From an uncultured virus (IMG/VR IMGVR_UViG_3300025648_000023) (lineage: Duplodnaviria > Heunggongvirae > Uroviricota > Caudoviricetes): a stretch of 64,000 bases of DNA. The stretch lies in the IMG/VR virus record IMGVR_UViG_3300025648_000023; one strand, written 5' to 3'. The position numbers and the translations under genes are program-made. Below, one piece after another: positions 2,536 through 42,065 of this stretch. The notes under the pieces were generated by a model. The model had not been told where the DNA came from. It did no database searches and saw only the letters and a list, made by a program, of their open reading frames with translations. How positions within the stretch are numbered: the first letter of the stretch is position 1; each line of letters opens with the position of its first letter.

Positions 2536-4113
2536 ATGATAGTAGGGACACACGTTGGTAAAGTTGGTGGGGGCAGATTAGGGAACTCTTTATGGCAATG
2601 GAGTTTCTTAGAAAGTTTAAGATTGAAGCATGGTATTGAATATGCCATACCCACTTGGCATTATTCAAAGTTTTTTATGTCCCCGCCGCCGCAAATAGAT
2701 AACACTCCTCTATTAGTCAAGCAAATAGAAGAACCTCACTTTCATTATACTCCCGAATATTGGGAAAGTTTAATAGATGATTTTAAAACACAAACAGTCG
2801 GTCTTAGAGGATGGTTTCAATCAAGTAAATATTTAGAAGAACATTCATCGCAAATAAAAGAACGGCTATCATTTACTCACGAATTTCAAAATAGCCTAAA
2901 AGAAAAGTTTAAACACATATTTACAAAGCCCACAATAGCAATAAGTATAAGGCGTGGGGATTATGTTGGGAATAGTAATTATCATTTATTAAGCATCGAA
3001 TATTATATTGGTGCATTGTACTATAATTTCTCAAACTTTAAAGATTACAATATTGTTATTTTTTCGGATGATTTAGCCTATTGTAGAACCCATTTTGAGT
3101 GTTTAGATAATTCTTTTTTTGCAGAAGGGTTAAGCGATATAGAACAACTTTGCTTAGGTACTATGATGGATAATTTCATAGTTTCAAATTCAACATTTGC
3201 CTTTTGGATGGCTTATTTAGGCAAAAAGTCTTACTCAAAAATAGTTCGCCCTAACTATCACTTTGCAGGAAAATTATTAGAAGAAAGTGATTGGAGTACA
3301 TACTATCCTAATGATTGGATTATTTACGACCACAATGATGTGGAACTTAATAGGATAGACCTTCACGATGTTACTTTTTGCATCCCTGTATTTTACGACC
3401 ACCCCGATAGAAATTCAAACCTATTGCTGAATATATGTATGCTACAAAGGTTATTTAATGCAGATATATTAGTAGGGGAAATGGGCGGTGAACAATGGAA
3501 AGATATACAGGGGATTAATTATGTCAATTTCCCTGAAATAAAAAACTTCCACCGTACAAAGATGCTGAATGAAATGTTCTATTCGGTACAAACGAATATT
3601 ATTTTTAATTGGGATGCAGATGTTGTCGTACCACCTTTACAAGTATTAAAGTGCATAGAAGAACTAAGAAGCAAACGTGCTGATATGTGCTATCCTTACG
3701 ATGGTCGTTTTGCTAGAGTTCCTAGAAATAGATTTTCGACAATAGAAAGTTTTTTAGATATTGGCATTTTAGGTGGGGAAGTTTTCAAAGGGATGAGACA
3801 AGGAGACGGAATGAGTGTAGGTGGTGCAATGGCTTGGCGAAAAGATGTATTTATAGAAGGTGGTGGGGAAAATGAAAATATGATTTCCTATGCACCAGAG
3901 GATACGGAAAGAAGGGAAAGGTTTGAAAGGCTTGGGTATAAAGTAGGTAGAGTTAAAGGTGTTCTTTATCATTTAGACCATTTCATAAGTATTGATAGTT
4001 CTGAAAAAAATCCATTTTTTAATGATAATTGGAACGAACTATATAAAATAAGGAATATGAGCAACAAAGAATTAAAAGAATATGTAAAATCTTGGGTATG
4101 GATGAAAAAATAA
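2536..4113 (+). CDS. bifunctional glycosyltransferase: GT11 (alpha-1,2-fucosyltransferase-like) plus a GT-A galactosyltransferase-like domain
   Basis: N-terminal half has GRLGN, GWFQS, ISIRRGDY, IFSDD and SNSTFAFW (GT11). C-terminal half has WDAD (DxD), GGENE..YAPED and LYHLDH (GT2/GT7-C type). Confidence 0.85.
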   Translation: MIVGTHVGKVGGGRLGNSLWQWSFLESLRLKHGIEYAIPTWHYSKFFMSPPPQIDNTPLLVKQIEEPHFHYTPEYWESLIDDFKTQTVGLRGWFQSSKYLEEHSSQIKERLSFTHEFQNSLKEKFKHIFTKPTIAISIRRGDYVGNSNYHLLSIEYYIGALYYNFSNFKDYNIVIFSDDLAYCRTHFECLDNSFFAEGLSDIEQLCLGTMMDNFIVSNSTFAFWMAYLGKKSYSKIVRPNYHFAGKLLEESDWSTYYPNDWIIYDHNDVELNRIDLHDVTFCIPVFYDHPDRNSNLLLNICMLQRLFNADILVGEMGGEQWKDIQGINYVNFPEIKNFHRTKMLNEMFYSVQTNIIFNWDADVVVPPLQVLKCIEELRSKRADMCYPYDGRFARVPRNRFSTIESFLDIGILGGEVFKGMRQGDGMSVGGAMAWRKDVFIEGGGENENMISYAPEDTERRERFERLGYKVGRVKGVLYHLDHFISIDSSEKNPFFNDNWNELYKIRNMSNKELKEYVKSWVWMKK

Positions 4114-9511: not shown

Positions 9512-9703
9512 ATGGCAATACCTAAAATTAGTGCTAGAGCGATTCAAGCACAACAAGAAAAGAAATGGCAAGTTGAAAATGCTGTAAACACATTGAAACG
9601 TGCAGACGAAATAAGGAACGACAAAAGCCTTATGCGTGACGTTACAAAGCACGTTCAGCAAACACACAAAGCAATAGTAGGCACACCAAACAAACGCAAA
9701 TAA
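9512..9703 (+). CDS. small basic phage protein
   Basis: 63 aa, EKKWQVENAVNTLKRADEIRND, basic C-terminus. Confidence 0.6.
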   Translation: MAIPKISARAIQAQQEKKWQVENAVNTLKRADEIRNDKSLMRDVTKHVQQTHKAIVGTPNKRK

Positions 9704-13487: not shown

Positions 13488-16400
13488 ATGGCAACATCAA
13501 TAAGACAAGATACTAACCCATTAGAAGAATGGGCTGAAAGAAAAAAAGAATCGGTAGCGGAAACGAAACCTATTAAAAAGTCTATTGTTAAAAGTCAAGA
13601 TAAATCACAGCCAACAGTTAGTGAAGAAAACCCACTTGAAGATTATTTTAAAAAAAAAGATGGTACTACAAACTATACAAGTGGGTCAGAAGTTTCAAAT
13701 TTACAAAGCAATCAACCCCCTACGGATGGTCAATCACAATTACCTACGAGCGAACCTAAGCTAAGTTTTGACCAAAACAAACAAAAGTCAATAAAGACAG
13801 TTGAAGAAAACTTAGGCGGTATTTCTGAATATTTTAAAAAACAAGGGTCTTACGATAAAGACTTTCAGCCTTTTTTACAAGGGATAAAATCAGGCAACCC
13901 CGAAACATTAAAAAAGGCTTGTGATATTATAAATACAGAACTTTCAAATAAAATAGATGAATTAAGTAAACCACAAGAAAGTTATGCAGGTTTAGCTAGT
14001 ATGGGTGGTGGATTAGCAGGATTAGGTACTCCCGAAGTTAGGAATGAAATATCATCAGAATCAAAATCACAAATAGAAAAACTAAAGAAGGCTAAAATAG
14101 AAAACTATAACAGCCTACTTAGATATGCAGCAGGTAATCCAAAAGATGCAACAGGGAAATACTTGTCACCCAAAAATATAGGCGATAGGCTTAATGCAGC
14201 AGGATTTGGCGTTTCTAAAGACCAACTTGAATTAGAAGCAAAAGCAGATAAATCAAAGACAAATTGGGCAACAATAGCAAAACAGCATACCGATTTTAGA
14301 AAAGAAACTTTAGGGTATCAGACAATATTGGATGATTTACAAAGCCGTTATGATGATGCTAAAAAGATATATGAAGATAATCAAACAGAAGAAAATCTAA
14401 AAAAGGTTAATGGGATAGCAGATGAATTAAATAATACAAAATCTAACTATAATAATTTAGATTTAAAATACCCCGAAGTTGCAAAGAAAAATTTAGCTTC
14501 GTTGATTTCAGATAATGTTTCTACCAATAGAAGTAGGGCTGATTTTAATTTCTTTAAACCTTCAATAGAAGAAATTAAACAAGGATTTGAGGATATTCGT
14601 AAAGAATCCCCCGAAACGGCAGCTAAATACCAACAAGTATTTAATAGTATTATACAAGACAAGCAATTTGTAGATGTGATGGGCGGTTCTACTCCTAGTA
14701 GTTATGGGCAACCAATAGTACAAGGGGGATTGGGCGGTGCTTTTTCAAGGGGATTGGATGATGTTGTTAATTTATGGGGAGTTGGTGACATTTTAACAAT
14801 GAAACCAGAAGATATAGCGGCAGAAAAATTGGCTACATCTTATTCCCCACAAAAGACCTCTTATCAAAAAGGTTCTGACGAAGGTAGGATAGTGGTAGAC
14901 AAAGAAGGTAATACATTAGTTAAGAAGCAAAATAATCTATCTAATACTTGGGACAATATTGTTAATCTAGTAGGTGAACAAGCCCCTACACTTATTGCAT
15001 TTGGGGGTATAGAAAGTGCTGCAAGTAAGACAATAGGCAAAGGGGTTGTAGGTACACTAAAAGGTGCAACGGGATTAGCAGGTGAATTTGTAGAGGGGGC
15101 AGCAGGAATAGAAGGTGGTACTGCAAGGGAAACGACAAGAAATGCCTTTAAATTTGCGAAGGGTGGAATTGCCGAAGGTTTACAACACGCAATAGGGACA
15201 CAAGCGGGTATTTTTGCTACTTCTTATGGTAAAAATTATGATGAAAGTATAGATAAATTCCCCGACACCCCCGAAGGGCATAATCAAGCACACGCAGCAG
15301 CAGCATTAAAAACATTCGCAGAGGGGACAGCATTTTCTTTAATGGGGATAAGTCCTTCTAAATTAATTGGGGGGACTATTGAAAAAAGTATAAATGCAGA
15401 TATTGATAAGTTTATAACAGAGAATGATTTTAGCAAGATAGGTAAAGAAGAATTTGCGGCAAAATTCGCAGATATGTATGCCCCTAAGATAGAAAAGCTA
15501 GTTTCTTCTACTGTTAAAGAATCTCTTAAAATGGGCGGTATCGGCAATGTCAATGAGTATATAAAAGGCAAGATAGACCAATATTTGACAGGTAAACAAC
15601 CCGAAGAAAGCACTAATGATGAAGAATTTAAGAAGCAAGTAGACATTTTTAAAAGTGGGGCTTTGATGGGGGCTGTATTTTCAGCGTTGCCTAATATGTT
15701 AAACTTTGCAACAAATGGCAAAGAATACGCACCTAGCCACACGGAAACACTAATGCACCTTTCCCAAAACCCCGAAGAAAGCAAATGGAGAGCGCAGCAG
15801 CTTTTTGAAAATGGCACAATAACAGATGCTAGGAGAAATGAATTTATTAAAACAATAAATACATCTGTAAATTCATTAAACGATGCTATTGAATTTGCAA
15901 GGGGAGAAGGGAAAGACTTTAACGACTTAAAGACCCAATCCCAACAAAAACTATTGGCTAATCAATTTAGACAAAGGTACTTTAAGGATATGGCTGATAA
16001 TAACCCTGACTTAAAAGAAAAGGCTATTGAAGAACAAGAAAGATTAAGAAAAGAAGCGTTAGGACTTTTGGAAGATAAAGAAGCAATGCCTATTAGTGAT
16101 GCCTTTGTTAAGGGATTAGATATTAAGATGGTTGTGCCTAAAACAGACGAAAGTAATGGGGGTGAAGTTAAATTAGGCAGCATAAACGAAATAGGGCAAA
16201 ACACAGACAAAACTTTTATTATTGATGGTAAAGAAGTAAATGCAGAAGAAGCCCACCAACACATTTTAGATAAAGCAACAGAATTAGTTGATGCCCCACG
16301 CATAACAGAAACAGAACAAGAAATATTAAAAGGATACGAAAAAAGGATTAAAGAGGGGGAAACTTTGCCTGCCAAGTCCCAAAAAGAATACGAATCCCTT

Positions 16401-19400
16401 TCTAAGAAAAAAGAACTTTACGACAAACAACAATCATTCATTAATCAAACAGAAGATGAGAAAAGCAAAAGTGCCGAACCCCAAACAACCGAAACTACAC
16501 AAGCCAAAAGTGAAGATACCGAAGGTACGCAAACCGAAGATTTAAAGTTCCCCAAAAGGAATGATGATTTTGCTTTCAAGTACTTTAGTGACGAAGAAAA
16601 AAATAAATATGCACAACTAGAAAAAGATGGAGATACCGAAGGTATTTCTAAAATGATTGAAGATAAAAAAGCAGAGTTAATAAGACAATCAGAACATAAG
16701 GTTACACCTACGATAGTAGTTGATGGAAAAGAATATTACGGTGCTAATCACGGGGAAGCAATGGAAGCTGCTATTGCAGACGGGAAAGATATACCTAGTC
16801 CAGATACAGAAGAAGGAGAAGCGTGGAGAACTGAACACGGACAATTTAAAACAGCAGACGGGGATTTATTAACTAGAGAGCAAGCTGAAAATGACCCTAA
16901 TTATGGGTTTAATCAATCAAAGGATATTCCTCCCATTCAATTATTAGTCCCTACATTAGAACCTGTTACTAAAACAGAACAATCCCCTATTGACAACGAA
17001 CCTTTAAAAGAAGGTGATATATTGGCAGATGGTCGTGAAGTATTAGGCGTAAATGAAGAAAAAGGGCTAATCACATTAAGAAAAGATATTGGTGAAGGTA
17101 ATTTTGAAACACAAACTATCCCACTTAAAGAAGCTACCGATATTGGTAGAAAAACAAAAACAACAACAGATGAAAGCATCAGCAAAGAAAGAGGTAAAGA
17201 AGGTCGCCAAAAAGGCGGTAGAAAAGAAGGTCGCCAAGAAAGCGATAAAAAAGGCAATGTAATTGGTGGGGACGGTACATCATCTAGTGAAGGTGGTGTA
17301 CCTCCTACTAATCCTCCTACAAGTAAAGAAAATACCCCCGAAGAAAATAGACAAGTTTGGATAGGGATACAAAAAGCTATGTTAGGGGACACCGTATTAA
17401 AAGTAATGGGAACTTTAGATAGTGTTACAAATAAAGAAACCATACAAAAGGCTATTGATATGCTTTCTGATATGGCTTCTAATGGCAGTAAGACTATTAT
17501 TGATGCAGCAAAAGATTATACTGACAAATGGCATGATATATTATTCAAAAAGACATCTAAAGGCGACCCAATATTAGATAGTCAAGGCAGACCCGAAATT
17601 AATAGAGGTGTTGGTATTCCCACTGAATTATTAGGGGCTATGGGTGTTAGACAGGCTTATTTGGCAGATATGCTTAATAATACTACCGACCTAGAAGAAC
17701 AAGGTAAAATTGCAGTAGAGATGCAAAGGGTTGACGAAGTTTTAAGGGTAGCACAAAATGAGTTGGGACGTAACTTTCAGTTTTTACAATCACTATTCAA
17801 GTTGGGTAGCGATGGTGAAATATTGTATAGGAGAAATGTTTTATCCAAAGCTATTGACGAAGAAATCCCCGATAATAAAGAAGCATTAGATAAGCGTATC
17901 GGCGAATTAAAAGAAGGGGATAAGGAAGATATAGAAAAGGCTAAAATGCTAAAAGAAGCCTATGATGAATTAGAAAAATTAAAGAACAAAACAAAGGCAG
18001 CCGAAGAATCTACTCAAAAAGAAGTTGATAGGATTACAAAAGAAGATTTTGACAAGGCTATTGCCGAAGCAGAAAAAAGAGGTCGTGAACAAGCCGCAGC
18101 CGAAAAGAAAAAAGGCAAAACCCCTCAATCTGAAATATTAAAGAAAACAGGGAAAGATTGGGCAAACAAAATTCGTTCATTAAAGATAGATAATAATAAT
18201 ACTTTAAGTGCAGATATAACATTAGGATTAGGCAGACCAACTTGGAATCTATTAGTAGAATCTGTTGCAAAATTAGTAGAAGCAGGTAGTGAAATAGGTG
18301 CAGCTATATCTAAGGTTTTAGAAGATAAAGAATTTTCTTCATTGAAGAAAGAAGATGTAGAAAAGTCATTAATAGGGGGTGTTGATGCTAAAACTAAAGA
18401 ACAAATTGATGCTAACAGGCGAAATGCAAAAGAGTATAAGGCACTTGAAACAGAACGTAACAGGCAAATAAGGGTTTATAATGACTTAAAAGAAAAGTTA
18501 GCTAAATTAGTAGATACAGGCAAAAAAGAGGTAAAAGAGAAAGGTGAAACAAAAAAAGACACGCCCGAAATAGAAGATTTAAAAAGTAGGATAGAGCAAG
18601 TAAAAAAAGATATTTCCGAAAGAGATGCGCACGAAAAGAAAATGCAAGGGCTACAAGATGAATTAACCCGTTTGCAAAACAGAACCCCAAAAGAGAAAAA
18701 AGAAGCAGGAGATAAAGTAGTTAGTGCAGAAGAACAAAAGCTAAAGGATGCTATTGATTTAGAAAGGAAACAATGGGCTTTAGAAAAGTCGGCTGAAAAT
18801 AGGATTAAAAATGCCGAAACTGAATTAAAAAGGGTACAGGATAGGATTGAAAACCCAAAAACAGAACCTTCTGAAAATAAATATCTTACTGAAAGGGAAG
18901 CTGAATTGGCTAAAGAAATTGAAAAAGAAAAGAAAGATTGGGCGCACGAAAAGAAAATGCAAGAGCTTGAAAGTAAGTTGGATGATATTAAAAACAGGCG
19001 TGAAAAAGCAGAAACCCAAAAAGAAAAGCAAGTTATTAGTGCAGAGGAACAAGCTAAACGTGATGAAATAGATGAGGCTCAAAAAGAATGGGATAAAGAA
19101 AAAAGGGTAGAACGTTTACAAGAAAAACTAGAAAAGGTAAAGCAGCGTATTGTTGAAGAAAAATCCCCTACTGAAAAGAAGAAACTTAGTGAAGAAGAAA
19201 AGTCTTTATTGCAACAGATAAAAGACGAAAATGCAATTTGGGCAACAGAAAACAAATATGATACACATCAAAAATTAGAAGACATATCAAGTGTAGCCAA
19301 AGAACAAGGGGTTACTACATTATCCCCTAAAATAGTTGAAGATGGATTAGTTCAAAATCTTATGGATTCTTATTTAGGGAAAGGCTTAAATAGTTCAGAA

Positions 19401-22325
19401 ATTTTAGAAAGTGCTTTGTCTGACTTAAAAAAAGTATTACCAGATGTAAGCGAAAGACAGCTATTAGATGCTTTTCTTCGTAAAGGGGATTTTGAACAAA
19501 AAACAAAAGAACAAGCTAACAAAGAATTAAAGCAACAAAAAGATGATTTAAGGCAGACCGCTAATTTGCAATTAGAGAATGATATGATTGCAAAAGGGGA
19601 GGAAATATTGAAGGACAAGAGTAAAAAAGATGAAATTAGCGGTTCTGTTGTAAAGATGCTAAAAGATAAAAAAGCAATGCTTTTACAACAAAAGAGAAAT
19701 GCAGAAGTTGACCAACAAGTATCAGATATAAACAACCATTTAAAGACTTGGGAAAAGATATTAAAAAGCGTTCAATACGAAGGGAACGTATTAGCCAAAA
19801 TGAAAGCAGATAATAGAGCTAAGATTGACGAAGCCCTTATTAAGAATGGGATTAAGTTAGATAGAAGTAGCCAAGATGTTATTCAAAAGAATAGAACTAT
19901 TGCTAATACTCATAACAATAAGGTTGATGAATTATTGTCTAATCCTAACTTGACAAACGAGCAAATCAGACTATTAAAAGGGCTTAAAATAAAAGACGTA
20001 AATAATGTAGAGGAGTTAGGTGAAAAAATAGACAAGGCAGCTAGAAGTATTCAAACACAAATAAATTTAGCTAACCCAACAGACCCGATTTCAAAAGAAT
20101 TAAAGTCTTTGAAAAATGATTTATTGGAAGGTTTAAGTAAGAGGGACGAGTTTACTAAACTTGAAGCAGCAAAACAAAAAATGAGAGGGGATATTAATAG
20201 AATGACTAGAGATATTGCAGGCAATAGATTTGCTGATTCAAAAAGTCCTACACAATTAAAAATAGATAGAGAGTATATTAAGCTACAACACGAAAGAAAT
20301 ATGCTTCGTGCAGAATATGACAAAGCAGAAGAAAAGTTCATATATCAAAATAAGAATAACATAGGGAAAGGGTTGGATTTATTTTTAAGGGCAAGGCGTG
20401 GTAATTTGATTTCTTCATTAAGTTCTACTGTATTCAAATTGCCGTTAAGTTCTTTTGTTAAAATAGGGGGGGATATTCTTTCTACTAATATATCAGGATT
20501 GTCTCCTTTAACGGGGGGGATTAGTTATTTAACAGGATTAGAAAAGGCAGTAAGCGCACAAAAAATATCTTGGAAAGCAGACTATGAAGGGTTGAAAACA
20601 ACAGCAGGGTTAAGCCTATCAAATGTAAGAGTTGACGAAGCTATTTTGAAAGAAACAAAAGAGCAAATGGCTAATACTAAAAAGATATTAACAGACCAAA
20701 AGCAAGTTTTATTAGATAGAAACAAGGAATTAAAAAAATCTGATGACGAGAAAAGTATTGATGAGATTTCAGATAATGAATCTAAAATAAAAGAGTTAGA
20801 TAGACAGATAGAAAAAAACTCAAACAAGGTTCGTGATATGAAAGTGGAAACACTTTTAAAAAGTACGGACGAATTATTAAAGTCAACAGCAGATAATTTT
20901 TTTAAAGTAAAGGCTGAATTAGAAAAAAATGGAGTTGACTTAAATAAAAGTAAAGAATATAAGGTAGCTAAAAAGGCTTTTGATGATGCGGAATACAATA
21001 GTGGGCTAGCTTTTATGTATCAATTTATTGGTCACGTTTGGAAGAATAGGGGTGAACAAATAATGGAAGGGGCGTACTCTTTTGAAGAGGCTATGGGCGA
21101 CTTTAAAAGAATGTCTTATGAAGATAGAATGGCTATACATTCTACTAAGTTTGGCAAAGGAGTAGAAACATTAATATACGGGGTTGATACAATAGGAAGG
21201 ATACACGCAGCTACTAAAGATATTTCAGCAATGAAGCAGTTTGTTACTGAATACGCAAAAGCATTAGAAAGGGCAAGTAGGAAAATGGATGCAGGTCAAC
21301 GTTTGCAAGAGAGTGACAAGTATATCATTATGCAAAAGGCTTTTGAACACGGGTTCAAGGGGGGTAAGTTTTCAGAAAAAAACGCTACTGTTAGATTTGT
21401 TCAAGATGCTTTTAAAAATATAGATAGGTCAATAGAAGAAAAAATGTTGAAGCGTGGTGGTACTAAAGACTTAAATTACAAGGCTTCAAGATTTGGTAGT
21501 GGGGTTGCACAATCTATATTGTTACCCGTTCTTAAAATACCTGCTAATATTGAAAATTCAGGGTTGTTTAAATATACATTAGGATACGGATTAGCTTTAA
21601 AAAGGATAGGTTCAGAAGCGATACGTGCTTCAAAAAATATGGACTATTCGGCACAACAAAGCATTACCGAAAATATAAAAAGGTTTGGTGAAGCATTTAC
21701 TAAGCACATGAGTGAATTAGACCCTGACTATGCAGATAAAATAAAAGAAGGATTAAATAAGGGGCAAGTTGGCTTAGTTACTATGGGGATTGCTGCACAC
21801 ATGATAGCAACGGGGGCTTTAGCTTTTGGAGGCGTTTATTATCCGGGGGCAAGAAAGAAAAAAGATGCTTATGGTAATGAATTGAATTTTGGTGCTATAT
21901 CATTAAATGGTAAAGTTTTCGACAACTATACTACTGCTATTTTAGGTCACTTAGATATAATGATGCCTTTCTTTATGGCAGCAAATTACATGACTGCAAA
22001 AGAAAATCAAGAAAGAATAAATCTTAATGAAGAAAACAGGGGGTTAGAGAAATACACTAAGAACCCCGAAGCGGTTGGGCTTGCAAATGACATTTTCATG
22101 GCAATAGAAGAAAGCCCCGTAAGAAATGTATTATCTTTGGCAGGCACACCCGAAAATGTATATCAAGGTAGTAGTGGAGTAATGGAAAGTTTCTTTTCAG
22201 TTGGGATTGCAAAAAGTATAGGAAAAGGTATAGATGACTACAACGGCGACCAAAGAGATATTCAAGATTGGAAAGATAGGCTTATGGTAAATAATGGATT
22301 AAATTTCTTAGTAAATAAAAAATAA
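13488..22325 (+). CDS. giant internal virion/cargo protein, 2945 aa
   Basis: Gly/Ala-rich amphipathic segments, an acidic linker and long K/E coiled-coil repeats; no recognisable catalytic motif. Confidence 0.7.
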   Translation: MATSIRQDTNPLEEWAERKKESVAETKPIKKSIVKSQDKSQPTVSEENPLEDYFKKKDGTTNYTSGSEVSNLQSNQPPTDGQSQLPTSEPKLSFDQNKQKSIKTVEENLGGISEYFKKQGSYDKDFQPFLQGIKSGNPETLKKACDIINTELSNKIDELSKPQESYAGLASMGGGLAGLGTPEVRNEISSESKSQIEKLKKAKIENYNSLLRYAAGNPKDATGKYLSPKNIGDRLNAAGFGVSKDQLELEAKADKSKTNWATIAKQHTDFRKETLGYQTILDDLQSRYDDAKKIYEDNQTEENLKKVNGIADELNNTKSNYNNLDLKYPEVAKKNLASLISDNVSTNRSRADFNFFKPSIEEIKQGFEDIRKESPETAAKYQQVFNSIIQDKQFVDVMGGSTPSSYGQPIVQGGLGGAFSRGLDDVVNLWGVGDILTMKPEDIAAEKLATSYSPQKTSYQKGSDEGRIVVDKEGNTLVKKQNNLSNTWDNIVNLVGEQAPTLIAFGGIESAASKTIGKGVVGTLKGATGLAGEFVEGAAGIEGGTARETTRNAFKFAKGGIAEGLQHAIGTQAGIFATSYGKNYDESIDKFPDTPEGHNQAHAAAALKTFAEGTAFSLMGISPSKLIGGTIEKSINADIDKFITENDFSKIGKEEFAAKFADMYAPKIEKLVSSTVKESLKMGGIGNVNEYIKGKIDQYLTGKQPEESTNDEEFKKQVDIFKSGALMGAVFSALPNMLNFATNGKEYAPSHTETLMHLSQNPEESKWRAQQLFENGTITDARRNEFIKTINTSVNSLNDAIEFARGEGKDFNDLKTQSQQKLLANQFRQRYFKDMADNNPDLKEKAIEEQERLRKEALGLLEDKEAMPISDAFVKGLDIKMVVPKTDESNGGEVKLGSINEIGQNTDKTFIIDGKEVNAEEAHQHILDKATELVDAPRITETEQEILKGYEKRIKEGETLPAKSQKEYESLSKKKELYDKQQSFINQTEDEKSKSAEPQTTETTQAKSEDTEGTQTEDLKFPKRNDDFAFKYFSDEEKNKYAQLEKDGDTEGISKMIEDKKAELIRQSEHKVTPTIVVDGKEYYGANHGEAMEAAIADGKDIPSPDTEEGEAWRTEHGQFKTADGDLLTREQAENDPNYGFNQSKDIPPIQLLVPTLEPVTKTEQSPIDNEPLKEGDILADGREVLGVNEEKGLITLRKDIGEGNFETQTIPLKEATDIGRKTKTTTDESISKERGKEGRQKGGRKEGRQESDKKGNVIGGDGTSSSEGGVPPTNPPTSKENTPEENRQVWIGIQKAMLGDTVLKVMGTLDSVTNKETIQKAIDMLSDMASNGSKTIIDAAKDYTDKWHDILFKKTSKGDPILDSQGRPEINRGVGIPTELLGAMGVRQAYLADMLNNTTDLEEQGKIAVEMQRVDEVLRVAQNELGRNFQFLQSLFKLGSDGEILYRRNVLSKAIDEEIPDNKEALDKRIGELKEGDKEDIEKAKMLKEAYDELEKLKNKTKAAEESTQKEVDRITKEDFDKAIAEAEKRGREQAAAEKKKGKTPQSEILKKTGKDWANKIRSLKIDNNNTLSADITLGLGRPTWNLLVESVAKLVEAGSEIGAAISKVLEDKEFSSLKKEDVEKSLIGGVDAKTKEQIDANRRNAKEYKALETERNRQIRVYNDLKEKLAKLVDTGKKEVKEKGETKKDTPEIEDLKSRIEQVKKDISERDAHEKKMQGLQDELTRLQNRTPKEKKEAGDKVVSAEEQKLKDAIDLERKQWALEKSAENRIKNAETELKRVQDRIENPKTEPSENKYLTEREAELAKEIEKEKKDWAHEKKMQELESKLDDIKNRREKAETQKEKQVISAEEQAKRDEIDEAQKEWDKEKRVERLQEKLEKVKQRIVEEKSPTEKKKLSEEEKSLLQQIKDENAIWATENKYDTHQKLEDISSVAKEQGVTTLSPKIVEDGLVQNLMDSYLGKGLNSSEILESALSDLKKVLPDVSERQLLDAFLRKGDFEQKTKEQANKELKQQKDDLRQTANLQLENDMIAKGEEILKDKSKKDEISGSVVKMLKDKKAMLLQQKRNAEVDQQVSDINNHLKTWEKILKSVQYEGNVLAKMKADNRAKIDEALIKNGIKLDRSSQDVIQKNRTIANTHNNKVDELLSNPNLTNEQIRLLKGLKIKDVNNVEELGEKIDKAARSIQTQINLANPTDPISKELKSLKNDLLEGLSKRDEFTKLEAAKQKMRGDINRMTRDIAGNRFADSKSPTQLKIDREYIKLQHERNMLRAEYDKAEEKFIYQNKNNIGKGLDLFLRARRGNLISSLSSTVFKLPLSSFVKIGGDILSTNISGLSPLTGGISYLTGLEKAVSAQKISWKADYEGLKTTAGLSLSNVRVDEAILKETKEQMANTKKILTDQKQVLLDRNKELKKSDDEKSIDEISDNESKIKELDRQIEKNSNKVRDMKVETLLKSTDELLKSTADNFFKVKAELEKNGVDLNKSKEYKVAKKAFDDAEYNSGLAFMYQFIGHVWKNRGEQIMEGAYSFEEAMGDFKRMSYEDRMAIHSTKFGKGVETLIYGVDTIGRIHAATKDISAMKQFVTEYAKALERASRKMDAGQRLQESDKYIIMQKAFEHGFKGGKFSEKNATVRFVQDAFKNIDRSIEEKMLKRGGTKDLNYKASRFGSGVAQSILLPVLKIPANIENSGLFKYTLGYGLALKRIGSEAIRASKNMDYSAQQSITENIKRFGEAFTKHMSELDPDYADKIKEGLNKGQVGLVTMGIAAHMIATGALAFGGVYYPGARKKKDAYGNELNFGAISLNGKVFDNYTTAILGHLDIMMPFFMAANYMTAKENQERINLNEENRGLEKYTKNPEAVGLANDIFMAIEESPVRNVLSLAGTPENVYQGSSGVMESFFSVGIAKSIGKGIDDYNGDQRDIQDWKDRLMVNNGLNFLVNKK
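16456..16545 (+). CDS. nested out-of-frame basic peptide, 29 aa
   Basis: MRKAKVPNPKQPKLHKPKVKIPKVRKPKI in the +1 frame of the giant gene, with an A-rich leader. Confidence 0.55.
   Translation: MRKAKVPNPKQPKLHKPKVKIPKVRKPKI
17170..17262 (+). CDS. nested out-of-frame histone H1-like peptide, 30 aa
   Basis: MKASAKKEVKKVAKKAVEKKVAKKAIKKAM in the +1 frame, leader AAAACAAAAACAACAACAG. Confidence 0.6.
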   Translation: MKASAKKEVKKVAKKAVEKKVAKKAIKKAM

Positions 22326-22331
22326 ACAATT

Positions 22332-22469
22332 ATGCCATTAAAGAAATCATCAAGTAAGAAAGCATTTTCTGAAAATGTAAGGAAGGAAGTTAAAGCAGGG
22401 AAACCCCAAAAGCAAGCAGTAGCAATAGCTTATAGTGTTCAAAGAAAAGCAAAAGGTAAAAAGAAATAA
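22332..22469 (+). CDS. small basic phage protein, 45 aa (not in ORF track)
   Basis: MPLKKSSSKKAFSENVRKEVKAGKPQKQAVAIAYSVQRKAKGKKK, of the widespread KPQKQAVAIA type. Confidence 0.8.
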   Translation: MPLKKSSSKKAFSENVRKEVKAGKPQKQAVAIAYSVQRKAKGKKK

Positions 22470-33420: not shown

Positions 33421-35901
33421 ATGGACTTATTTGCTTCGGAGTGTTACAAACAGCTTAATCCAAATAAAAAAGATGCAAAATGGTTTAACGATGTAATAAC
33501 TATATTCAGACGAGATTGGGTACAGTTAGTCAATCGTGAACGTGCTATTGAAAATAGACAGATACTATTTTCACAGCAACCAATGGACAATGTAAAGGCT
33601 TTTTTTAGCGATAAAGAGTTTTTAGAAAATACCGATTTCGTTCCTTTGGGAATTTGGGGGCGTATATTCAATATCATCTTGGAAGAATTGCGAAGCGACC
33701 CCCCCGAAATAACAGTAAGGGCAAATGATGAATCAGCAATGATGGATAAGCAAGCAGATATTAAAAGATTGTCTACTTTTACCCAACATCAAAAAGCAGT
33801 ATCTGAATTAAATTCAAGGGTAGGATTACCCCCTTTGCCAGCAGACGATACAAAGTTTAAGACCAACATAAAAGAAATGCTTTTATACGGGTTAGACCCC
33901 AATGACAAAGAAGATATAGACTTCTTTCATAGGAATGACTTTATCCGATTAAAGCAAGAAATCGCCGCTAACAAAGTAATAAGTGCCGTACTAAATGTAA
34001 ACAACTACGACAAAGAAATATTAGAGGACAACGTTATAGACATTCTTAGCACAAATACTTGTACAGTACATAAATATGTTAGCCAAACAACAGGGGAACA
34101 AAAGATACAAAGGATATTCCCCGAAGAAGTATATGGCATATTTGGCAATAAACGTGATGGCTCTAGGGATATTTGTAACGGGTGGGTACAGAATGTCCCA
34201 TTAAGGGATTTTATCGCAATGGCAGGTCAGGATTTCGACTTTGAAAGGGATTGGTATCAATTACTATGGGCTTTAAATTTCAGCAACAACAGCACCTACA
34301 CTGGTTTTACACAGGGGAATAGGGAATACAACGGGAAACATCACCCAAATTACGAAAGCGATAAAGACTATTTCTCACAAGCGCAAGGTTATAGTGGGGA
34401 GTTTGGGGGCAAATTCCTTTCTTGGGAACAAGCCTATACTTATAATGTCCAAGTGGGGTATATAGAGTTTTGCTCGATAGATGCCACAAAGTCATACCTA
34501 TCAAAAAAAGATAAGAACGGGAAAGAAATAGAAGTAGGCAAGATTGTCCCTTATGGTTATGACTTAGACGACAAAGAAGTTACAGAAGGGTATGTAGTAG
34601 AAAATATCACTAACGAGCAATTTTATTATAGTTACTTTTTACCGACTACAAGCATCTCCCAATGGATATATAATTTCGGCAAAGTAATCTATCAAGATAC
34701 ACAAGGGGTAAACGATGAATATTCTTGTGGGAATATGATAGTTTACCGTAAAGAAGGTGCAAGCGCAGTAGATATATCCAAGACGGATATTTTCAAGGCA
34801 AACCAAGCGGCTTATAGGATATTATGGTTGCTATCAAAAGTACAGCCTAACAAAGAAGATTACGATTGGGATGAAGTAATGGAGTTGGCGCAATTATTCA
34901 AAAGGGAATACCAACAAGACAATGAAGATTCCCCTATCTTTTCAGTAGGGAATATCTTAGAGGATATAGTAAAGGTTCAAAAGCAATCACACGTTAGGAT
35001 TAGGGTAAGACCTAGAATAGATGGCAGAAAAACCCAAGACTATCATAGAATAGAAGTACAGCAACCCCGTGACCTACAATCAATGTGGATAGAATCAATA
35101 GAAAAAACAGCCATTGAAAACATTGCCCAAATGGTAGGGCTTAATGATGTAAGATTAGGACAAGTACAAAATGCAAGAAAAGGCTTTAAGGCTTCCGAAA
35201 TGGAAACAACCCAAAGCGAAAAAAGCACAGGGTATATATTTAGGATAATACAGTATGTAAAAGAACGTATATGTACTAGGATACTAAACACAACCCAAGA
35301 TGCAATAGCTTTTGAAGATAGTTTGGCTTGTGATTGGATTAGGTCAATAATAGGGGAATTACAGTTCAACAACTTGAAAAACCTAAAAGACTATGCAGAT
35401 AAAAACAAGGCAGCACATAGATTAGGGTTATATGTAGGTAACTACATTACAGCTATGGATAGACAAAAGGTTATCCAAGCAGCAGATATGGCATTGGCTA
35501 ATCAAGACGGCAAAGGTGGAATAGAATTAAACGAATGGGGAATTATTACCCGTGAAAAAGACCCAAGACAAGGGTTAGCATTATTAGAGCAATATCGTGA
35601 GAAAGCAAGAAAGCGTACAAGAAAAGAAAAGTTGGAAGAAATAAAAATGCAGCAAGACCACCAAAAAGAAATGCAAGCAAACGAAGCTAAAATGCAACAA
35701 GCAAAAGATGCAGCAGATATTCAAAAGGCTCAAATCCCTGCACAAGCTATGGTACAAGTTGCACAACTTAACAATAAGACTAAAGAAGATATTACAGATA
35801 AGAAGATAGAAAACGAACCTGCAAAACAACAGACAAGAACGGCTAACCAAAAAGACTTAGCTACACACAAATCAGATTTGCAGCAACAAGAAAGTTACTA
35901 A
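33421..35901 (+). CDS. portal protein
   Basis: 826 aa; ITVRAND, IAQMVGLNDVRLGQ and a Q/A-rich C-terminal coiled-coil barrel; lies between terminase/muzzle and capsid genes. Confidence 0.8.
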   Translation: MDLFASECYKQLNPNKKDAKWFNDVITIFRRDWVQLVNRERAIENRQILFSQQPMDNVKAFFSDKEFLENTDFVPLGIWGRIFNIILEELRSDPPEITVRANDESAMMDKQADIKRLSTFTQHQKAVSELNSRVGLPPLPADDTKFKTNIKEMLLYGLDPNDKEDIDFFHRNDFIRLKQEIAANKVISAVLNVNNYDKEILEDNVIDILSTNTCTVHKYVSQTTGEQKIQRIFPEEVYGIFGNKRDGSRDICNGWVQNVPLRDFIAMAGQDFDFERDWYQLLWALNFSNNSTYTGFTQGNREYNGKHHPNYESDKDYFSQAQGYSGEFGGKFLSWEQAYTYNVQVGYIEFCSIDATKSYLSKKDKNGKEIEVGKIVPYGYDLDDKEVTEGYVVENITNEQFYYSYFLPTTSISQWIYNFGKVIYQDTQGVNDEYSCGNMIVYRKEGASAVDISKTDIFKANQAAYRILWLLSKVQPNKEDYDWDEVMELAQLFKREYQQDNEDSPIFSVGNILEDIVKVQKQSHVRIRVRPRIDGRKTQDYHRIEVQQPRDLQSMWIESIEKTAIENIAQMVGLNDVRLGQVQNARKGFKASEMETTQSEKSTGYIFRIIQYVKERICTRILNTTQDAIAFEDSLACDWIRSIIGELQFNNLKNLKDYADKNKAAHRLGLYVGNYITAMDRQKVIQAADMALANQDGKGGIELNEWGIITREKDPRQGLALLEQYREKARKRTRKEKLEEIKMQQDHQKEMQANEAKMQQAKDAADIQKAQIPAQAMVQVAQLNNKTKEDITDKKIENEPAKQQTRTANQKDLATHKSDLQQQESY

Positions 35902-36360: not shown

Positions 36361-36684
36361 TTATATTTTTTCAATTAAAACGGGTTGAATAATACCCCTA
36401 TCAATAATTGTGTTGATAGGGGTATTTGTTTTTTGGGATATTATCTTTAATGCCTCGTGTTCGTCAGTAGATATATAAGTACTACTCCAAACCCTTTTTT
36501 GACTAACCATTTCAGTTATACATTCGGGACATTCATTGAAATCCCTTATCAAAGTTATTATTTTCTTTCTAAGATAGGAACGTATAGTAACCTTTGGGTT
36601 ATCCCTTTTAATTTTTTCTTCAAATGCTTTCCACTCGTTTTCAGTCCTAGTGGGTTTTAATTGAACAACGTTCCTTTTTGCCAT
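36361..36684 (-). CDS. tandem ribbon-helix-helix DNA-binding protein
   Basis: Two beta-helix-helix units: VVQLKP..ENEWKAF..TIRSYLRKKI and STYISTDEHEALK..PINTIIDRGI. Confidence 0.55.
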   Translation of the reverse strand: MAKRNVVQLKPTRTENEWKAFEEKIKRDNPKVTIRSYLRKKIITLIRDFNECPECITEMVSQKRVWSSTYISTDEHEALKIISQKTNTPINTIIDRGIIQPVLIEKI

Positions 36685-41214: not shown

Positions 41215-41994
41215 ATGTCAACACCTGCTCCTTATATTTTTGGTAATACCGTTGCGGCGTGTGTCTTAAACGAAAACGGGATAGACTTCCTTGATAGGGT
41301 AAACGGTCTATCCTGTTCTCCAAAGGCATTGTATGTTCCAACAAAGGCATCTGATTTAAAGTTTGATAACTACGATAGATGGGCTGTACCTATTTCAGAT
41401 AATGGTGTTTTTACGGGGTTTGATTACAATACATTAAGGACGGGGCAATATTACTTAACCCCACCTACCGTAGATAGCCTTCCTTGTTTCTTAATTAAAG
41501 AACCTAGAACATCTAAGTATTGGTACATATTTGGGGAATTGACAGATTTGATGGCAGCAGCTAGTGTCCAAAGTGGGGGTACGGTTATATTGATGCAAGG
41601 TATTGTACAAATAACAGACCCATTTAATTCACCTAGACAAATTTTTGCAGTTGACCCTACATTGTTCCCTAAAGTAATTATACCACAAGTAAGTATCAAT
41701 CAAACAAATGATGGGACTATTACTTACTTTGCGGCAGGGGTTAATTACACAACCGTAGCGTTGCCAACACTAAGTGATTCTTTAAAATATTTCCCACAAG
41801 GGATTATCAATAACGTGTTTCTTCCAACAGCACCAACTACATATTCTACACCCGCAGCATTGTTGACATACTTAAACGCAAATTATACAAACGGGGGTGA
41901 AATTACTTGGTATCTTGATTCGACTAATTCAACATTATTCGCAACAGGATTTACTTTGGGGGATAACTTTGGTACAGTAATAACAGCCGTGTAA
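41215..41994 (+). CDS. putative capsid decoration/structural protein (paralog B)
   Basis: Shares ALPTLS.SL..FP and Y.TPA.LLT..NA..T with 40464-41195. Confidence 0.55.
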   Translation: MSTPAPYIFGNTVAACVLNENGIDFLDRVNGLSCSPKALYVPTKASDLKFDNYDRWAVPISDNGVFTGFDYNTLRTGQYYLTPPTVDSLPCFLIKEPRTSKYWYIFGELTDLMAAASVQSGGTVILMQGIVQITDPFNSPRQIFAVDPTLFPKVIIPQVSINQTNDGTITYFAAGVNYTTVALPTLSDSLKYFPQGIINNVFLPTAPTTYSTPAALLTYLNANYTNGGEITWYLDSTNSTLFATGFTLGDNFGTVITAV

Positions 41995-42029
41995 ATAGTT
42001 GCCCATTGCGCTGTGGGTGGTGGGTAATA

Positions 42030-42065
42030 GGGCGGCTGATTTTCGGTTCGCCCTTTTTGTTTTTA
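42030..42065 (+). terminator. intrinsic terminator after the capsid genes
   Basis: GGGCGGCTGA-ttt-TCGGTTCGCCC hairpin followed by TTTTTGTTTTTT. Confidence 0.7.

What the first reader, a model, noticed from the sequence alone, without database searches (positions are those of the whole stretch)
16456..17262. Two lysine-rich micro-ORFs nested out of frame inside the giant cargo gene
Seen: the +1 frame of the 2945-aa gene contains MRKAKVPNPKQPKLHKPKVKIPKVRKPKI (16456-16545) and MKASAKKEVKKVAKKAVEKKVAKKAIKKAM (17170-17262). Each has an ATG, an A-rich leader like the genuine genes here, and a periodic PK or AKK pattern. The host frame is low-complexity linker at both places. Established: AKK/PKK repeats typify histone-H1-like DNA-condensing peptides. 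Inference: these are overprinted genes for DNA-neutralising core peptides. With the free-standing basic peptides at 9512 and 22332 they would form a four-member set around the cargo genes.
Basis: partly seen in the sequence, partly recalled or inferred. Interest (0 to 1): 0.75.

Follow-up and report, generated by a model that had tools for sequence, protein, structure and literature searches.

The report
Hidden lysine-rich mini-gene in giant phage gene
Of two tiny lysine-rich reading frames hidden out of frame inside a giant phage gene, one looks like a real, separately conserved mini-gene followed by a conserved RNA hairpin, while the other may be only a side effect of the surrounding sequence.

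Summary
Both +1-frame ATG ORFs exist exactly as described (16456-16545, 29 aa; 17170-17262, 30 aa) inside the 2945-codon phage gene 13488-22325. Their existence and lysine-richness are not above chance: synonymous reshuffling of the host gene keeps them open in 100% and 79% of trials, and gives as many +1 ORFs as are seen. Comparison changes the picture for the second ORF. It sits in a ~165-nt patch shared with a giant gene that is otherwise only 26% identical in protein. Across three alleles (two as DNA, one as protein only), 18 of 21 inferred changes fall on the host's first codon position, which is the wobble position of the +1 frame. The host frame is 34-50% diverged there, while the +1 peptide differs at 4 of 30 residues between the two DNA alleles. 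In a gene-wide scan this window is an extreme outlier. Its stop codon abuts a 22-bp RNA hairpin, the second most stable 60-nt stretch of the 64-kb window, which is 100% conserved. A third relative lacks the whole module. The first ORF shows only a suggestive signal. The 'four-member set' and the DNA-condensing role are not supported by any test here. No expression data exist.

The parts
13488..22325 (+). Host gene: 2945-codon phage ORF of unknown function, upstream of an HNH endonuclease, large terminase and portal
   Evidence: No PHROG hit, only a sub-threshold Pfam hit, and no PDB sequence match. Full-length homologs P0003-P0006 and P0012.
16456..16545 (+). ORF1: 29-codon P/K-rich +1-frame ORF in an E/T/P/Q linker; status unresolved, leaning by-product
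   Evidence: No hairpin after its stop (z 0.36).
17150..17313 (+). Mosaic patch shared with the otherwise diverged giant gene of L005 (nt identity 78-90% in 40-codon bins against about 45% elsewhere): leader + ORF2 + hairpin
   Evidence: The same patch occurs in a further sequence context in public freshwater contigs. It is absent from L007.
17150..17169 (+). A/C-rich, G/U-poor stretch in front of the ORF2 ATG, resembling the leaders of the phage's genuine genes
   Evidence: Host residues there are K/T in the window, T/K/S in L005 and Q/T in P0012, all from A/C-rich codons.
17170..17262 (+). ORF2: 30-codon lysine/alanine/valine-rich +1-frame ORF, net charge +11; likely a real nested gene
17196..17249 (+). 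Two 27-nt tandem units; in the +1 frame each reads KKVAKKA plus two variable residues
17262..17312 (+). 22-bp RNA hairpin (10 + 12 pairs, 2-nt bulge, 5-nt loop, several G-U pairs, no U-tract) starting at the last base of the ORF2 stop codon
   Evidence: dG -28.3 kcal/mol, z -4.1, 0 of 200 shuffles as stable. Rank 2 of 12,788 60-nt windows. Synonymous recoding reaches it in 0.4% of 3000 trials. 100% identical in L005 and the most stable window of that gene.
17247..17253 (+). A_AAA_AAG heptamer in the ORF2 frame, 8 nt before the hairpin (formal -1 frameshift layout into the host frame); not conserved
   Evidence: Read. L005 and a metagenome allele carry G at 17247 and 17250.
18982..19071 (+).
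   Evidence: (65th percentile)
22332..22469 (+). Free-standing 45-aa basic protein gene, member of phrog_2423; also present in the L005 contig
9512..9703 (+). Free-standing 63-aa ORF between two genes; no family match

Best explanation
ORF2 (17170-17262) is most likely a genuine protein-coding frame nested in the +1 frame of a disordered linker of the giant gene. It would be translated by internal, Shine-Dalgarno-independent initiation at its AUG, which sits behind an A/C-rich unstructured stretch. This phage's genes, like those of Bacteroidota, lack SD sequences.

The product would be a 30-residue peptide with net charge +11, built from (KKxA)-type repeats. Selection keeps this peptide. The host frame over the same 31 codons only has to stay open and hydrophilic, so it drifts through E/K/Q and G/S/R swaps.

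Leader, ORF and a conserved 22-bp RNA hairpin that begins at the stop codon form one ~165-nt module. That module has been exchanged between otherwise very different giant genes and is missing from a third.

What is shown: the ORFs, the substitution pattern, the hairpin, and the mosaic distribution. What is inferred: that the frame is translated as a free peptide, and that the peptide acts as a polycation on nucleic acid or another polyanion. The role of the hairpin is unknown.

ORF1 (16456-16545) is more likely than not a by-product of an E/T/P/Q linker. It is not excluded as a second nested gene (my estimate 0.3).
For: 1. L005, whose giant protein is 26% identical overall, keeps ATG, TAA and 26 of 30 residues of ORF2.

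2. Of 11 nucleotide differences in the ORF2 span, 8 lie at host codon position 1, 2 at position 2 and 1 at position 3. Six are synonymous in +1 and none in the host frame. Two other conserved islands of the same gene pair show the normal host-frame pattern, 6/4/10 and 16/8/26.

3. Host third positions differ at 1 of 31 in the span against 26 of 75 in island 2 (Fisher 4e-4). First positions differ equally, 8/31 against 16/75 (P 0.62).

4. Random placement of 7 transitions and 4 transversions gives at least 8 at position 1 in 0.34% of trials. It gives at least 6 +1-synonymous together with 0 host-synonymous changes in 0.25%.

5. A third allele, P0012 (protein only), differs from the window at 13 of 32 host residues, 11 of them by position-1-type changes. 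It differs from P0006 at 16 of 32, of which 15 are position-1-type. Elsewhere in the same protein pairs the position-1 share is 70/182, 23/86 (linker-type residues) and 81/227. The binomial P values are 6e-6, 3e-8 and 4e-4.

6. Parsimony on the three alleles gives 18 position-1, 2 position-2 and 1 position-3 changes.

7. P0012's host sequence allows the window's or L005's +1 residue at 31 of 31 positions.

8. In a 30-codon sliding scan of P0006 against P0012, the ORF2 window (16 of 17) is far above the next best (6 of 8) among 690 windows.

9. All four repeat units (two per DNA allele) read KKVAKKA in +1, with AAA/AAG and GTC/GTA variation.

10. The start context lies at the 98th percentile of 898 internal ATGs and above 53% of genuine starts. 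In Bacteroidetes, initiation is SD-independent and tuned by structure and upstream A residues (PMC6847099, abstract read).

11. In-frame KKEVKKVAKKA tails and small phage proteins with 27-nt-period AKK repeats exist elsewhere, so such peptides are made in nature.
Against: - The ORF, its length and its lysine content are predicted by the host amino-acid sequence alone. Existence is therefore no evidence.
- Only two independent DNA alleles were available. P0012 is known as protein only, so its host third positions (the +1 middle positions) are unseen, and parsimony hides silent changes there.
- The three pairwise counts share branches.
- Some of the tests were framed after seeing the data.
- The differences are clustered: 11 in 93 nt against 0 in the next 60 nt (Fisher 0.004). 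Recombination or gene conversion within the 27-nt repeats therefore contributes. One site changed in both units of a lineage.
- L007, from a contig that CheckV rates 100% complete, lacks the module and has no K-rich small ORF anywhere.
- The closer full-length relatives P0003-P0005 have diverged linkers here. P0004 and P0005 lack a residue pair that could give ATG at the aligned place.
- The base at -3 is C, not the favoured A (PMC6847099 abstract).
- Host-frame codon usage in the span is only at the 13th percentile, so it is not an outlier.
- There is no RNA, ribosome or peptide evidence of any kind.
Confidence: 0.62

Rival explanations
1. Both ORFs are non-functional by-products. An E/K/G/T/Q-rich linker read one base later necessarily gives K-rich, stop-poor sequence. 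On this view the substitution skew at ORF2 reflects three things: host-level tolerance of swaps within a residue class (E/K/Q, G/S/R), recent exchange of the patch, and gene conversion among the 27-nt repeats.
For: - Synonymous shuffles reproduce the ORFs, their number and most of their K content.
- The whole +1 frame is 16.7% K, and a third K-rich ORF at 18982 has a poor start context.
- The same K-rich motif lies +1 to long ORFs in 2 of the 120 unrelated viral loci examined, L012 and L015.
- The module is absent from L007.
- Differences are clustered in the repeat.
- Windows without any +1 ORF reach 11 of 16 and 11 of 17 position-1-type changes in the window-versus-P0003 scan.
Against: - Linker-type residues elsewhere in the same proteins show only 27-31% position-1-type replacements.
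- The ORF2 window is a far outlier, 16 of 17.
- Silent host third-position changes are almost absent, although first positions are as diverged as in island 2. Host-only selection predicts the opposite.
- Transversions are common among the position-1 changes, so a transition bias does not explain the skew.
Confidence: 0.22
2. The +1 frame is read, but by ribosomal frameshifting rather than as a free peptide. In one version, host-frame ribosomes slip forward in the A-run before 17170 and end at the TAA. That would give a 1230-residue product with a K-rich C-terminal tail. In the other version, ribosomes starting at 17170 slip -1 at A_AAA_AAG (17247-17253) before the hairpin and continue in the host frame.
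For: - In the window, the heptamer, an 8-nt spacer and a very stable stem-loop form the classical -1 layout.
- K-rich stretches of this type are C-terminal tails in all 7 prokaryotic matches.
- Five-A runs lie upstream of the ATG in both DNA alleles.
- The +1 frame is open upstream of the ATG, from 17080 in the window (read). In L005 it is open at least 34 codons upstream of the shared ATG, with a further ATG 13 codons upstream.
Against: - The heptamer is not kept in L005 or in the metagenome allele; both carry G at 17247 and 17250.
- P0012's upstream residues (Q/T) cannot give a five-A run.
- No known +1 shift signal is present.
- The ATG is kept in both DNA alleles and is possible in P0012.
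Confidence: 0.08
3. One reading: ORF1, ORF2 and the free-standing ORFs at 9512 and 22332 are a four-member set of histone-H1-like peptides. They would be packaged to neutralise DNA around 'cargo' proteins.
For: - ORF2 has H1-tail-like composition, and it does not form an amphipathic helix (hydrophobic moment 0.15 at 100 degrees, below the shuffle median of 0.18). This fits polyanion binding better than membrane attack.
- The 22332 gene is real, basic, and conserved next to the giant gene in the L005 contig.
Against: - The four share no sequence family. 22332 is phrog_2423; the others match nothing.
- ORF1 is unconfirmed.
- The L007 contig has none of the K-rich ORFs.
- Nothing links the giant protein to capsid cargo.
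- No virion or DNA-binding data exist.
Confidence: 0.05

Closest known systems
Lambda Rz1 embedded in Rz (two-component spanin genes); the search listing and abstract starts of PMC5295617 and PMC6139136 were seen, the rest is recalled
   Same: A small gene lying wholly inside a larger phage gene, same strand, +1 frame, with its own start and stop.
   Different: As recalled, Rz1 is an outer-membrane lipoprotein with a signal sequence that works together with its host gene's product. ORF2 has no signal, lipobox or hydrophobic stretch, and its host is a 2945-residue protein of unknown role. No functional link between the two frames is shown.
Overprinted genes of small viruses, e.g. phiX174 E in D (review PMC8227390, abstract start seen; the example is recalled)
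   Same: A second frame is used over an existing gene. The new product is short, compositionally biased and probably disordered. One frame is relaxed where the other is constrained.
   Different: Here the genome is large, so there is no obvious pressure on coding space. The nested unit also behaves as an exchangeable module with its own hairpin.
Lysine/alanine-rich tails of the histone H1 C-terminal-domain type, and bacterial or phage K-rich tails
   Same: Composition and KKxA periodicity. Exact KKEVKKVAKKA stretches occur in frame as C-terminal tails in 7 prokaryotic genomes, 3 of them Flavobacteriales MAGs. KKVAKKA occurs in many phage proteins.
   Different: No homology can be claimed for low-complexity sequence, and there is no Pfam or PHROG hit. 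ORF2 would be a free 30-mer, not a tail.
phiKT gp28 'disruptin', a 56-aa cationic lysis peptide (bioRxiv 10.1101/515445, abstract read)
   Same: A small, strongly cationic, phage-encoded peptide without homologs.
   Different: gp28 is described as an amphipathic helix that sticks to membranes. ORF2 has no helical hydrophobic moment at 100 degrees (0.15 against a shuffle median of 0.18) and a mean hydrophobicity of -0.33.
dnaX-type -1 programmed frameshift signal (recalled)
   Same: In the window, A_AAA_AAG, an 8-nt spacer and a strong stem-loop.
   Different: The heptamer is not conserved in the other alleles. The shift would run from the small frame into the large one.

Membership tests
Nested (overprinted) protein-coding gene | Complete ORF with start and stop in another frame of a longer gene | tested here: met
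   (both ORFs)
Nested (overprinted) protein-coding gene | Start, stop and frame retained in diverged homologs | tested here: inconclusive
   ORF2: kept in L005, possible in P0012, absent in L007, unknown in P0003-P0005 (no DNA). ORF1: L005 has a non-alignable look-alike whose ATG-giving N-E pair is S-E in P0012. P0003 keeps D-E but not the stop.
Nested (overprinted) protein-coding gene | Purifying selection in the nested frame (changes concentrated on its wobble position) | tested here: met
   ORF2. ORF1 is only suggestive: 12 of 16 in the window versus P0003 (P 0.002 against 80/222), the top of 2273 windows, but runners-up reach 11/16 and 11/17. A DNA variant shows 2 +1-silent and 2 host-silent changes.
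Nested (overprinted) protein-coding gene | Evidence of translation (ribosome profiling, peptide) | not testable with these tools
   No RNA run was listed among 23 holders; only DNA contigs were laid.
Histone H1-like / AKK-repeat DNA-binding polycation | K/A-rich repeat composition | tested here: met
   ORF2 has 13 K of 30 residues and net charge +11. ORF1 is P/K-rich.
Histone H1-like / AKK-repeat DNA-binding polycation | Match to a curated family of such proteins | tested here: not met
   No Pfam or PHROG match at E up to 1.
Histone H1-like / AKK-repeat DNA-binding polycation | Binds and condenses DNA; present in virions | not testable with these tools
-1 programmed frameshift site (dnaX type) | Slippery heptamer, 5-9 nt spacer, stable downstream structure | tested here: met
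   Window only: 17247-17253, 8 nt, hairpin.
-1 programmed frameshift site (dnaX type) | Heptamer conserved among homologs | tested here: not met
   L005 and the X13 allele carry G at 17247 and 17250.
Cationic amphipathic lysis or antimicrobial peptide (disruptin-like) | Amphipathic alpha-helix | tested here: not met
   Hydrophobic moment at 100 degrees is 0.15, below the shuffle median of 0.18.
Intrinsic terminator | GC-rich hairpin followed by a U-tract | tested here: not met
   The hairpin 17262-17312 is followed by CCUCCUACAAG. Genuine terminators at 41998-42054 and 36391-36426 have U-tracts.
phrog_2423 (small basic phage protein, function unknown) for the 22332 ORF | Profile match over the full length | tested here: met
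   E 3e-22, residues 1-44 on profile positions 1-44 of 52.

The most novel reading that the evidence does not exclude
Linkers of giant phage structural-region genes serve as landing sites for exchangeable mini-cassettes. Each cassette would be an SD-less A/C-rich leader, a ~30-codon polycation gene in the +1 frame and a strong RNA hairpin. The host frame merely stays open across them, and they move between unrelated giant genes by recombination. ORF2 would be one such cassette and ORF1 possibly a second. Unchecked notes of this scan describe similar nested basic ORFs in other giant phage genes.
Probability: 0.3. Interest if true: 0.75.

Novelty: new variant of a known kind. Interest (0 to 1): 0.6.

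Why it matters
If ORF2 is translated, standard annotation misses a class of tiny polycationic phage peptides. They hide inside giant genes, have no homologs and are destroyed by trypsin. It would also mean that low-complexity linkers of giant virion-region proteins carry a second layer of coding and RNA structure.

The case also shows a method point. Existence, length and composition of such an ORF say nothing, because the host protein sequence forces them. The codon-position pattern of substitutions, even read from protein sequences alone, can separate a selected frame from a by-product.

The 22-bp hairpin is conserved to the base between genes that are otherwise about 45% identical in DNA. 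It is an unexplained element in its own right.

Tried and rejected
- **Phage GenBank records.** megablast and tblastn with the giant gene found no match.
- **The window's own assembly** is not held. The nearest records, G001/L004 and L001, are identical over the gene and give no variation.
- **Searches for homolog DNA.** With P0003, P0004, P0005 and two alignments, in viral, metagenome and genome contigs, only the window's twin, L005/L006 and L007 were found. The tool that fetches contigs by protein identity was closed and I did not call it. DNA of P0003-P0005 and P0012 therefore stayed out of reach.
- **Pattern scan for the hairpin block** in viral contigs found only the 3 known contigs.
- **Fragment search** with residues 1205-1295 found nothing.
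- **Sequencing runs.** No RNA holder was listed, and all 23 holders are DNA contigs of freshwater metagenomes. Laying 4 of the 23 gave one ORF1 variant, the L005-type ORF2 allele and a partial third allele. Parts without cover say nothing.
- **Internal promoter.** The TAnnTTTG motif at 17099 (motif recalled as the Bacteroidetes -7 box) is at chance density: 7 in the giant gene, 45 in the window. It is not in L005. The sigma-70 scan was below shuffle expectation.
- **Rfam** gave nothing relevant in 16000-18000.
- **Paralogous in-frame donor** of the repeat in the window, G001, G002 or G003: only weak matches with 2 mismatches.
- **crAss-like or 'cargo' identity.** No PDB sequence match for the portal, the 521-aa protein or the giant protein.
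- **DGR-type mutagenesis** was considered and dropped, because there is no second repeat copy. No search for a reverse transcriptase was made.
- **Host-frame rare-codon test.** 13th percentile, not decisive.
- **Literature.** 'overprinting + phage + lysine-rich + reading frame' gave 0 papers. 'overlapping gene, bacteriophage, nested, small basic protein' gave none with the last term among the 8 of 78 papers listed.
Full report
**What the window is.** The 64-kb window is phage DNA. It encodes a GroEL-like chaperonin, an HNH endonuclease, a large terminase and a portal. GC is 31-39%. Of 32 gene starts, only 2 have an SD-like motif, and leaders are 53% A and 29% T. This is the Bacteroidota style of initiation described for Flavobacterium johnsoniae (PMC6847099, abstract read). 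Near-identical sequence occurs in freshwater metagenome runs. The 2945-codon ORF 13488-22325 has no PHROG match, no Pfam match above threshold and no PDB sequence match. The 'cargo' label is therefore unsupported.

**The observation.** Both ORFs are present as written and lie at offset +1 to the giant ORF. The second owes its AKK periodicity to two 27-nt tandem units.

**Are the ORFs more than chance?** No.
- The +1 frame of the gene is 16.7% lysine throughout. It holds 12 ATG ORFs of at least 20 aa, including a third K-rich one at 18982.
- In 1000 shuffles that keep the host protein and its codon usage, the expected number is 12.2 and the longest ORF averages 58 aa (49 observed).
- At the first locus the +1 frame stays open in 100% of shuffles, and at the second in 79%. 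The ATG survives in about 70%. K+R is expected at 34% and 39%, against 41% and 43% observed.
- A count of 'K-rich ORFs' gave P 0.05, but I set its threshold after seeing the data.

Presence, length and composition are thus dictated by the E/K/G/T/Q linker.

**Relatives.** Near-identical contigs (L001, L004 = G001) carry no differences. Full-length homologs P0003-P0006 are 52, 48, 43 and 26% identical. DNA could be had only for P0006 (L005, L006) and a further relative, L007.

**ORF2.** L005 keeps the ATG, the TAA and 26 of 30 residues, although the two genes are about 45% identical in DNA. Three islands stand out against that background: residues 59-95, residues 1058-1146, and the ORF2 region, where nucleotide identity (78-90%) exceeds protein identity (57-70%).
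- Differences by host codon position are 6/4/10 and 16/8/26 in the first two islands, the normal pattern. In the ORF2 span they are 8/2/1. Six are silent in +1 and none in the host frame.
- Host third positions differ at 1 of 31 in the span against 26 of 75 in island 2 (Fisher 4e-4). First positions are equally diverged.
- Random placement of the same number of transitions and transversions gives such a skew in 0.3% of trials.

A whole-library HMMER search then produced P0012, a third allele known as protein only.
- It differs from the window at 13 of 32 host residues, 11 by position-1-type changes. It differs from P0006 at 16 of 32, of which 15 are position-1-type.
- Elsewhere in the same protein pairs the position-1 share is 27-38%. 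The binomial P values are 6e-6 and 4e-4.
- Parsimony over the three alleles gives 18, 2 and 1 changes at positions 1, 2 and 3.
- P0012's host sequence is compatible with the known +1 residues at 31 of 31 positions. Under a minimal-change assumption its +1 peptide would differ from the window's at two residues.
- In a sliding scan the ORF2 window (16 of 17) is far above the next best of 690 windows (6 of 8).

Host-only selection predicts silent third-position changes and a mix of first- and second-position changes. The data show the reverse, which is the signature of a frame selected one base later.

**Caveats.**
- There are only two DNA alleles and one protein allele.
- The pairwise counts share branches.
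- Parts of the analysis are post hoc.
- The differences cluster in the repeat: 11 in 93 nt against 0 in the next 60 nt. Mosaic ancestry or conversion between the units therefore plays a part.
- L007, which matches L005 closely upstream, replaces the linker and lacks ORF2. Its contig, rated complete by CheckV, has no K-rich small ORF at all.

**The hairpin.** The 60 nt that are 100% identical between the window and L005 begin at the last base of the ORF2 stop. They fold into a 22-bp hairpin (dG -28.3 kcal/mol, z -4.1, 0 of 200 shuffles).
- It is the second most stable of 12,788 60-nt windows in the 64 kb. Ranks 1 and 3 are intergenic terminators with U-tracts, which this hairpin lacks.
- Synonymous recoding of the host peptide gives a mean of -18.1 and reaches the observed value in 0.4% of 3000 trials. 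Part of the fold comes from Gly and Pro/Thr codons, and part from codon choice.
- One metagenome variant falls in the 2-nt bulge. P0012's single replacement there (G to D) would, by the minimal change, turn a G-U pair into A-U (inference).
- L007 has a different, weaker structure at the same site.

Leader, ORF2 and hairpin together make up the shared patch 17150-17313. The same patch turns up in yet another upstream context in public contigs. I cannot say what the hairpin does.

**A frameshift reading.** In the window, an A_AAA_AAG heptamer in the ORF2 frame lies 8 nt before the hairpin. The other alleles do not keep it, so I do not file this as a frameshift site.

**ORF1.**
- L005 has a 30-aa P/K-rich +1 ORF in its own E/T/P linker, but the DNA is not convincingly alignable. 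The N-E pair that supplies its ATG is S-E in P0012.
- The window and P0003 align without gaps over ORF1. Of 16-17 replacements, 12 are position-1-type (P 0.002). This is the top of 2273 windows, but windows without any +1 ORF reach 11/16 and 11/17.
- P0003 is compatible with the ORF1 peptide at 23 of 30 positions and does not keep the stop.
- A metagenome variant carries two +1-silent and two host-silent changes inside ORF1. The five differences just downstream are all at host third positions.
- No hairpin follows ORF1.

I rate ORF1 at about 0.3.

**Function.** ORF2 has net charge +11 and no helical hydrophobic moment (0.15). That argues against a disruptin-like membrane peptide (10.1101/515445, abstract read) and fits a polyanion binder. 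Identical K-rich stretches occur in frame as C-terminal tails in 7 prokaryotic genomes and in many phage proteins. Nothing tests DNA condensation or packaging.

**The 'set of four'.** The 22332 ORF is a real gene of phrog_2423, also present in the L005 contig. The 9512 ORF matches nothing. Neither is related in sequence to ORF1 or ORF2.

**Earlier notes of this scan.** Notes e1-7967217, e1-5965140, e1-6252642, e1-6069761, e1-6465930 and e1-5952444 describe nested basic ORFs in other giant phage genes. They are unchecked leads and I did not use them as evidence. By shared words, none of them concerns this sequence.

**Verdict.** ORF2 is probably a real nested gene (0.62) within an exchangeable module that also holds a conserved hairpin. 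ORF1 is unresolved. The functional story and the four-member set are not supported.

Noticed in passing
window 17262-17312: A 22-bp RNA hairpin inside the giant gene. It is the second most stable 60-nt stretch of the whole window, has no U-tract, and is 100% identical in a gene that is otherwise about 45% identical in DNA. Its function is unknown.
   Followed up: partly
window 13660-13775 and 16660-16925 (host residues 59-95 and 1058-1146): Two further islands of high nucleotide identity (81-86%) between the window's giant gene and L005's. Both show the normal host-frame substitution pattern. The second is a small domain (PTIVVDGKEYYGANHGEAM...) found in 26 giant or roughly 900-aa proteins of the representative library.
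   Followed up: partly
window 22332-22469: A free-standing 45-aa basic gene 6 nt after the giant gene's stop, a member of phrog_2423 (E 3e-22). It is conserved in the L005 contig. An unchecked scan note (e1-6069761) says members of this family are nested inside giant genes in other phages.
   Followed up: partly
window 17247-17253: An A_AAA_AAG heptamer in the ORF2 frame, 8 nt before the hairpin. This is a formal -1 frameshift layout into the host frame. It is present in the window (and the same host residues D-K-K-G occur in P0012), but it is replaced in L005 and in a metagenome allele.
   Followed up: yes
L007 gene nt 4004-4093 (same linker site): The relative that lacks ORF2 has, at the same site, a different 29-codon +1 ORF with a hydrophobic, Cys-containing tail. 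It also has the second most stable RNA structure of its gene (-19.8 kcal/mol).
   Followed up: no
P0007-P0009 and P0033 (distant giant homologs): Some family members carry a histidine-phosphatase domain (PF00300, precomputed for P0007-P0009), so the central part of these giant proteins appears to swap domains.
   Followed up: no
window 41998-42054 and 36391-36426: Strong intergenic hairpins with U-tracts after genes 41215-41994 and 33421-35901. They are likely intrinsic terminators of the structural module.
   Followed up: no
L080, L083, L057, L025 (unrelated viral contigs): Small free-standing phage ORFs made of 27-nt-period repeats reading AKKAPAKKV..., the same 9-residue period as ORF2 but in the main frame.
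   Followed up: no
window 18982-19071: A third K-rich +1 ORF (29 aa, 10 K) in the coiled-coil part of the giant gene. Its start context is poor (65th percentile) and it gave no signal in the scans.
   Followed up: partly
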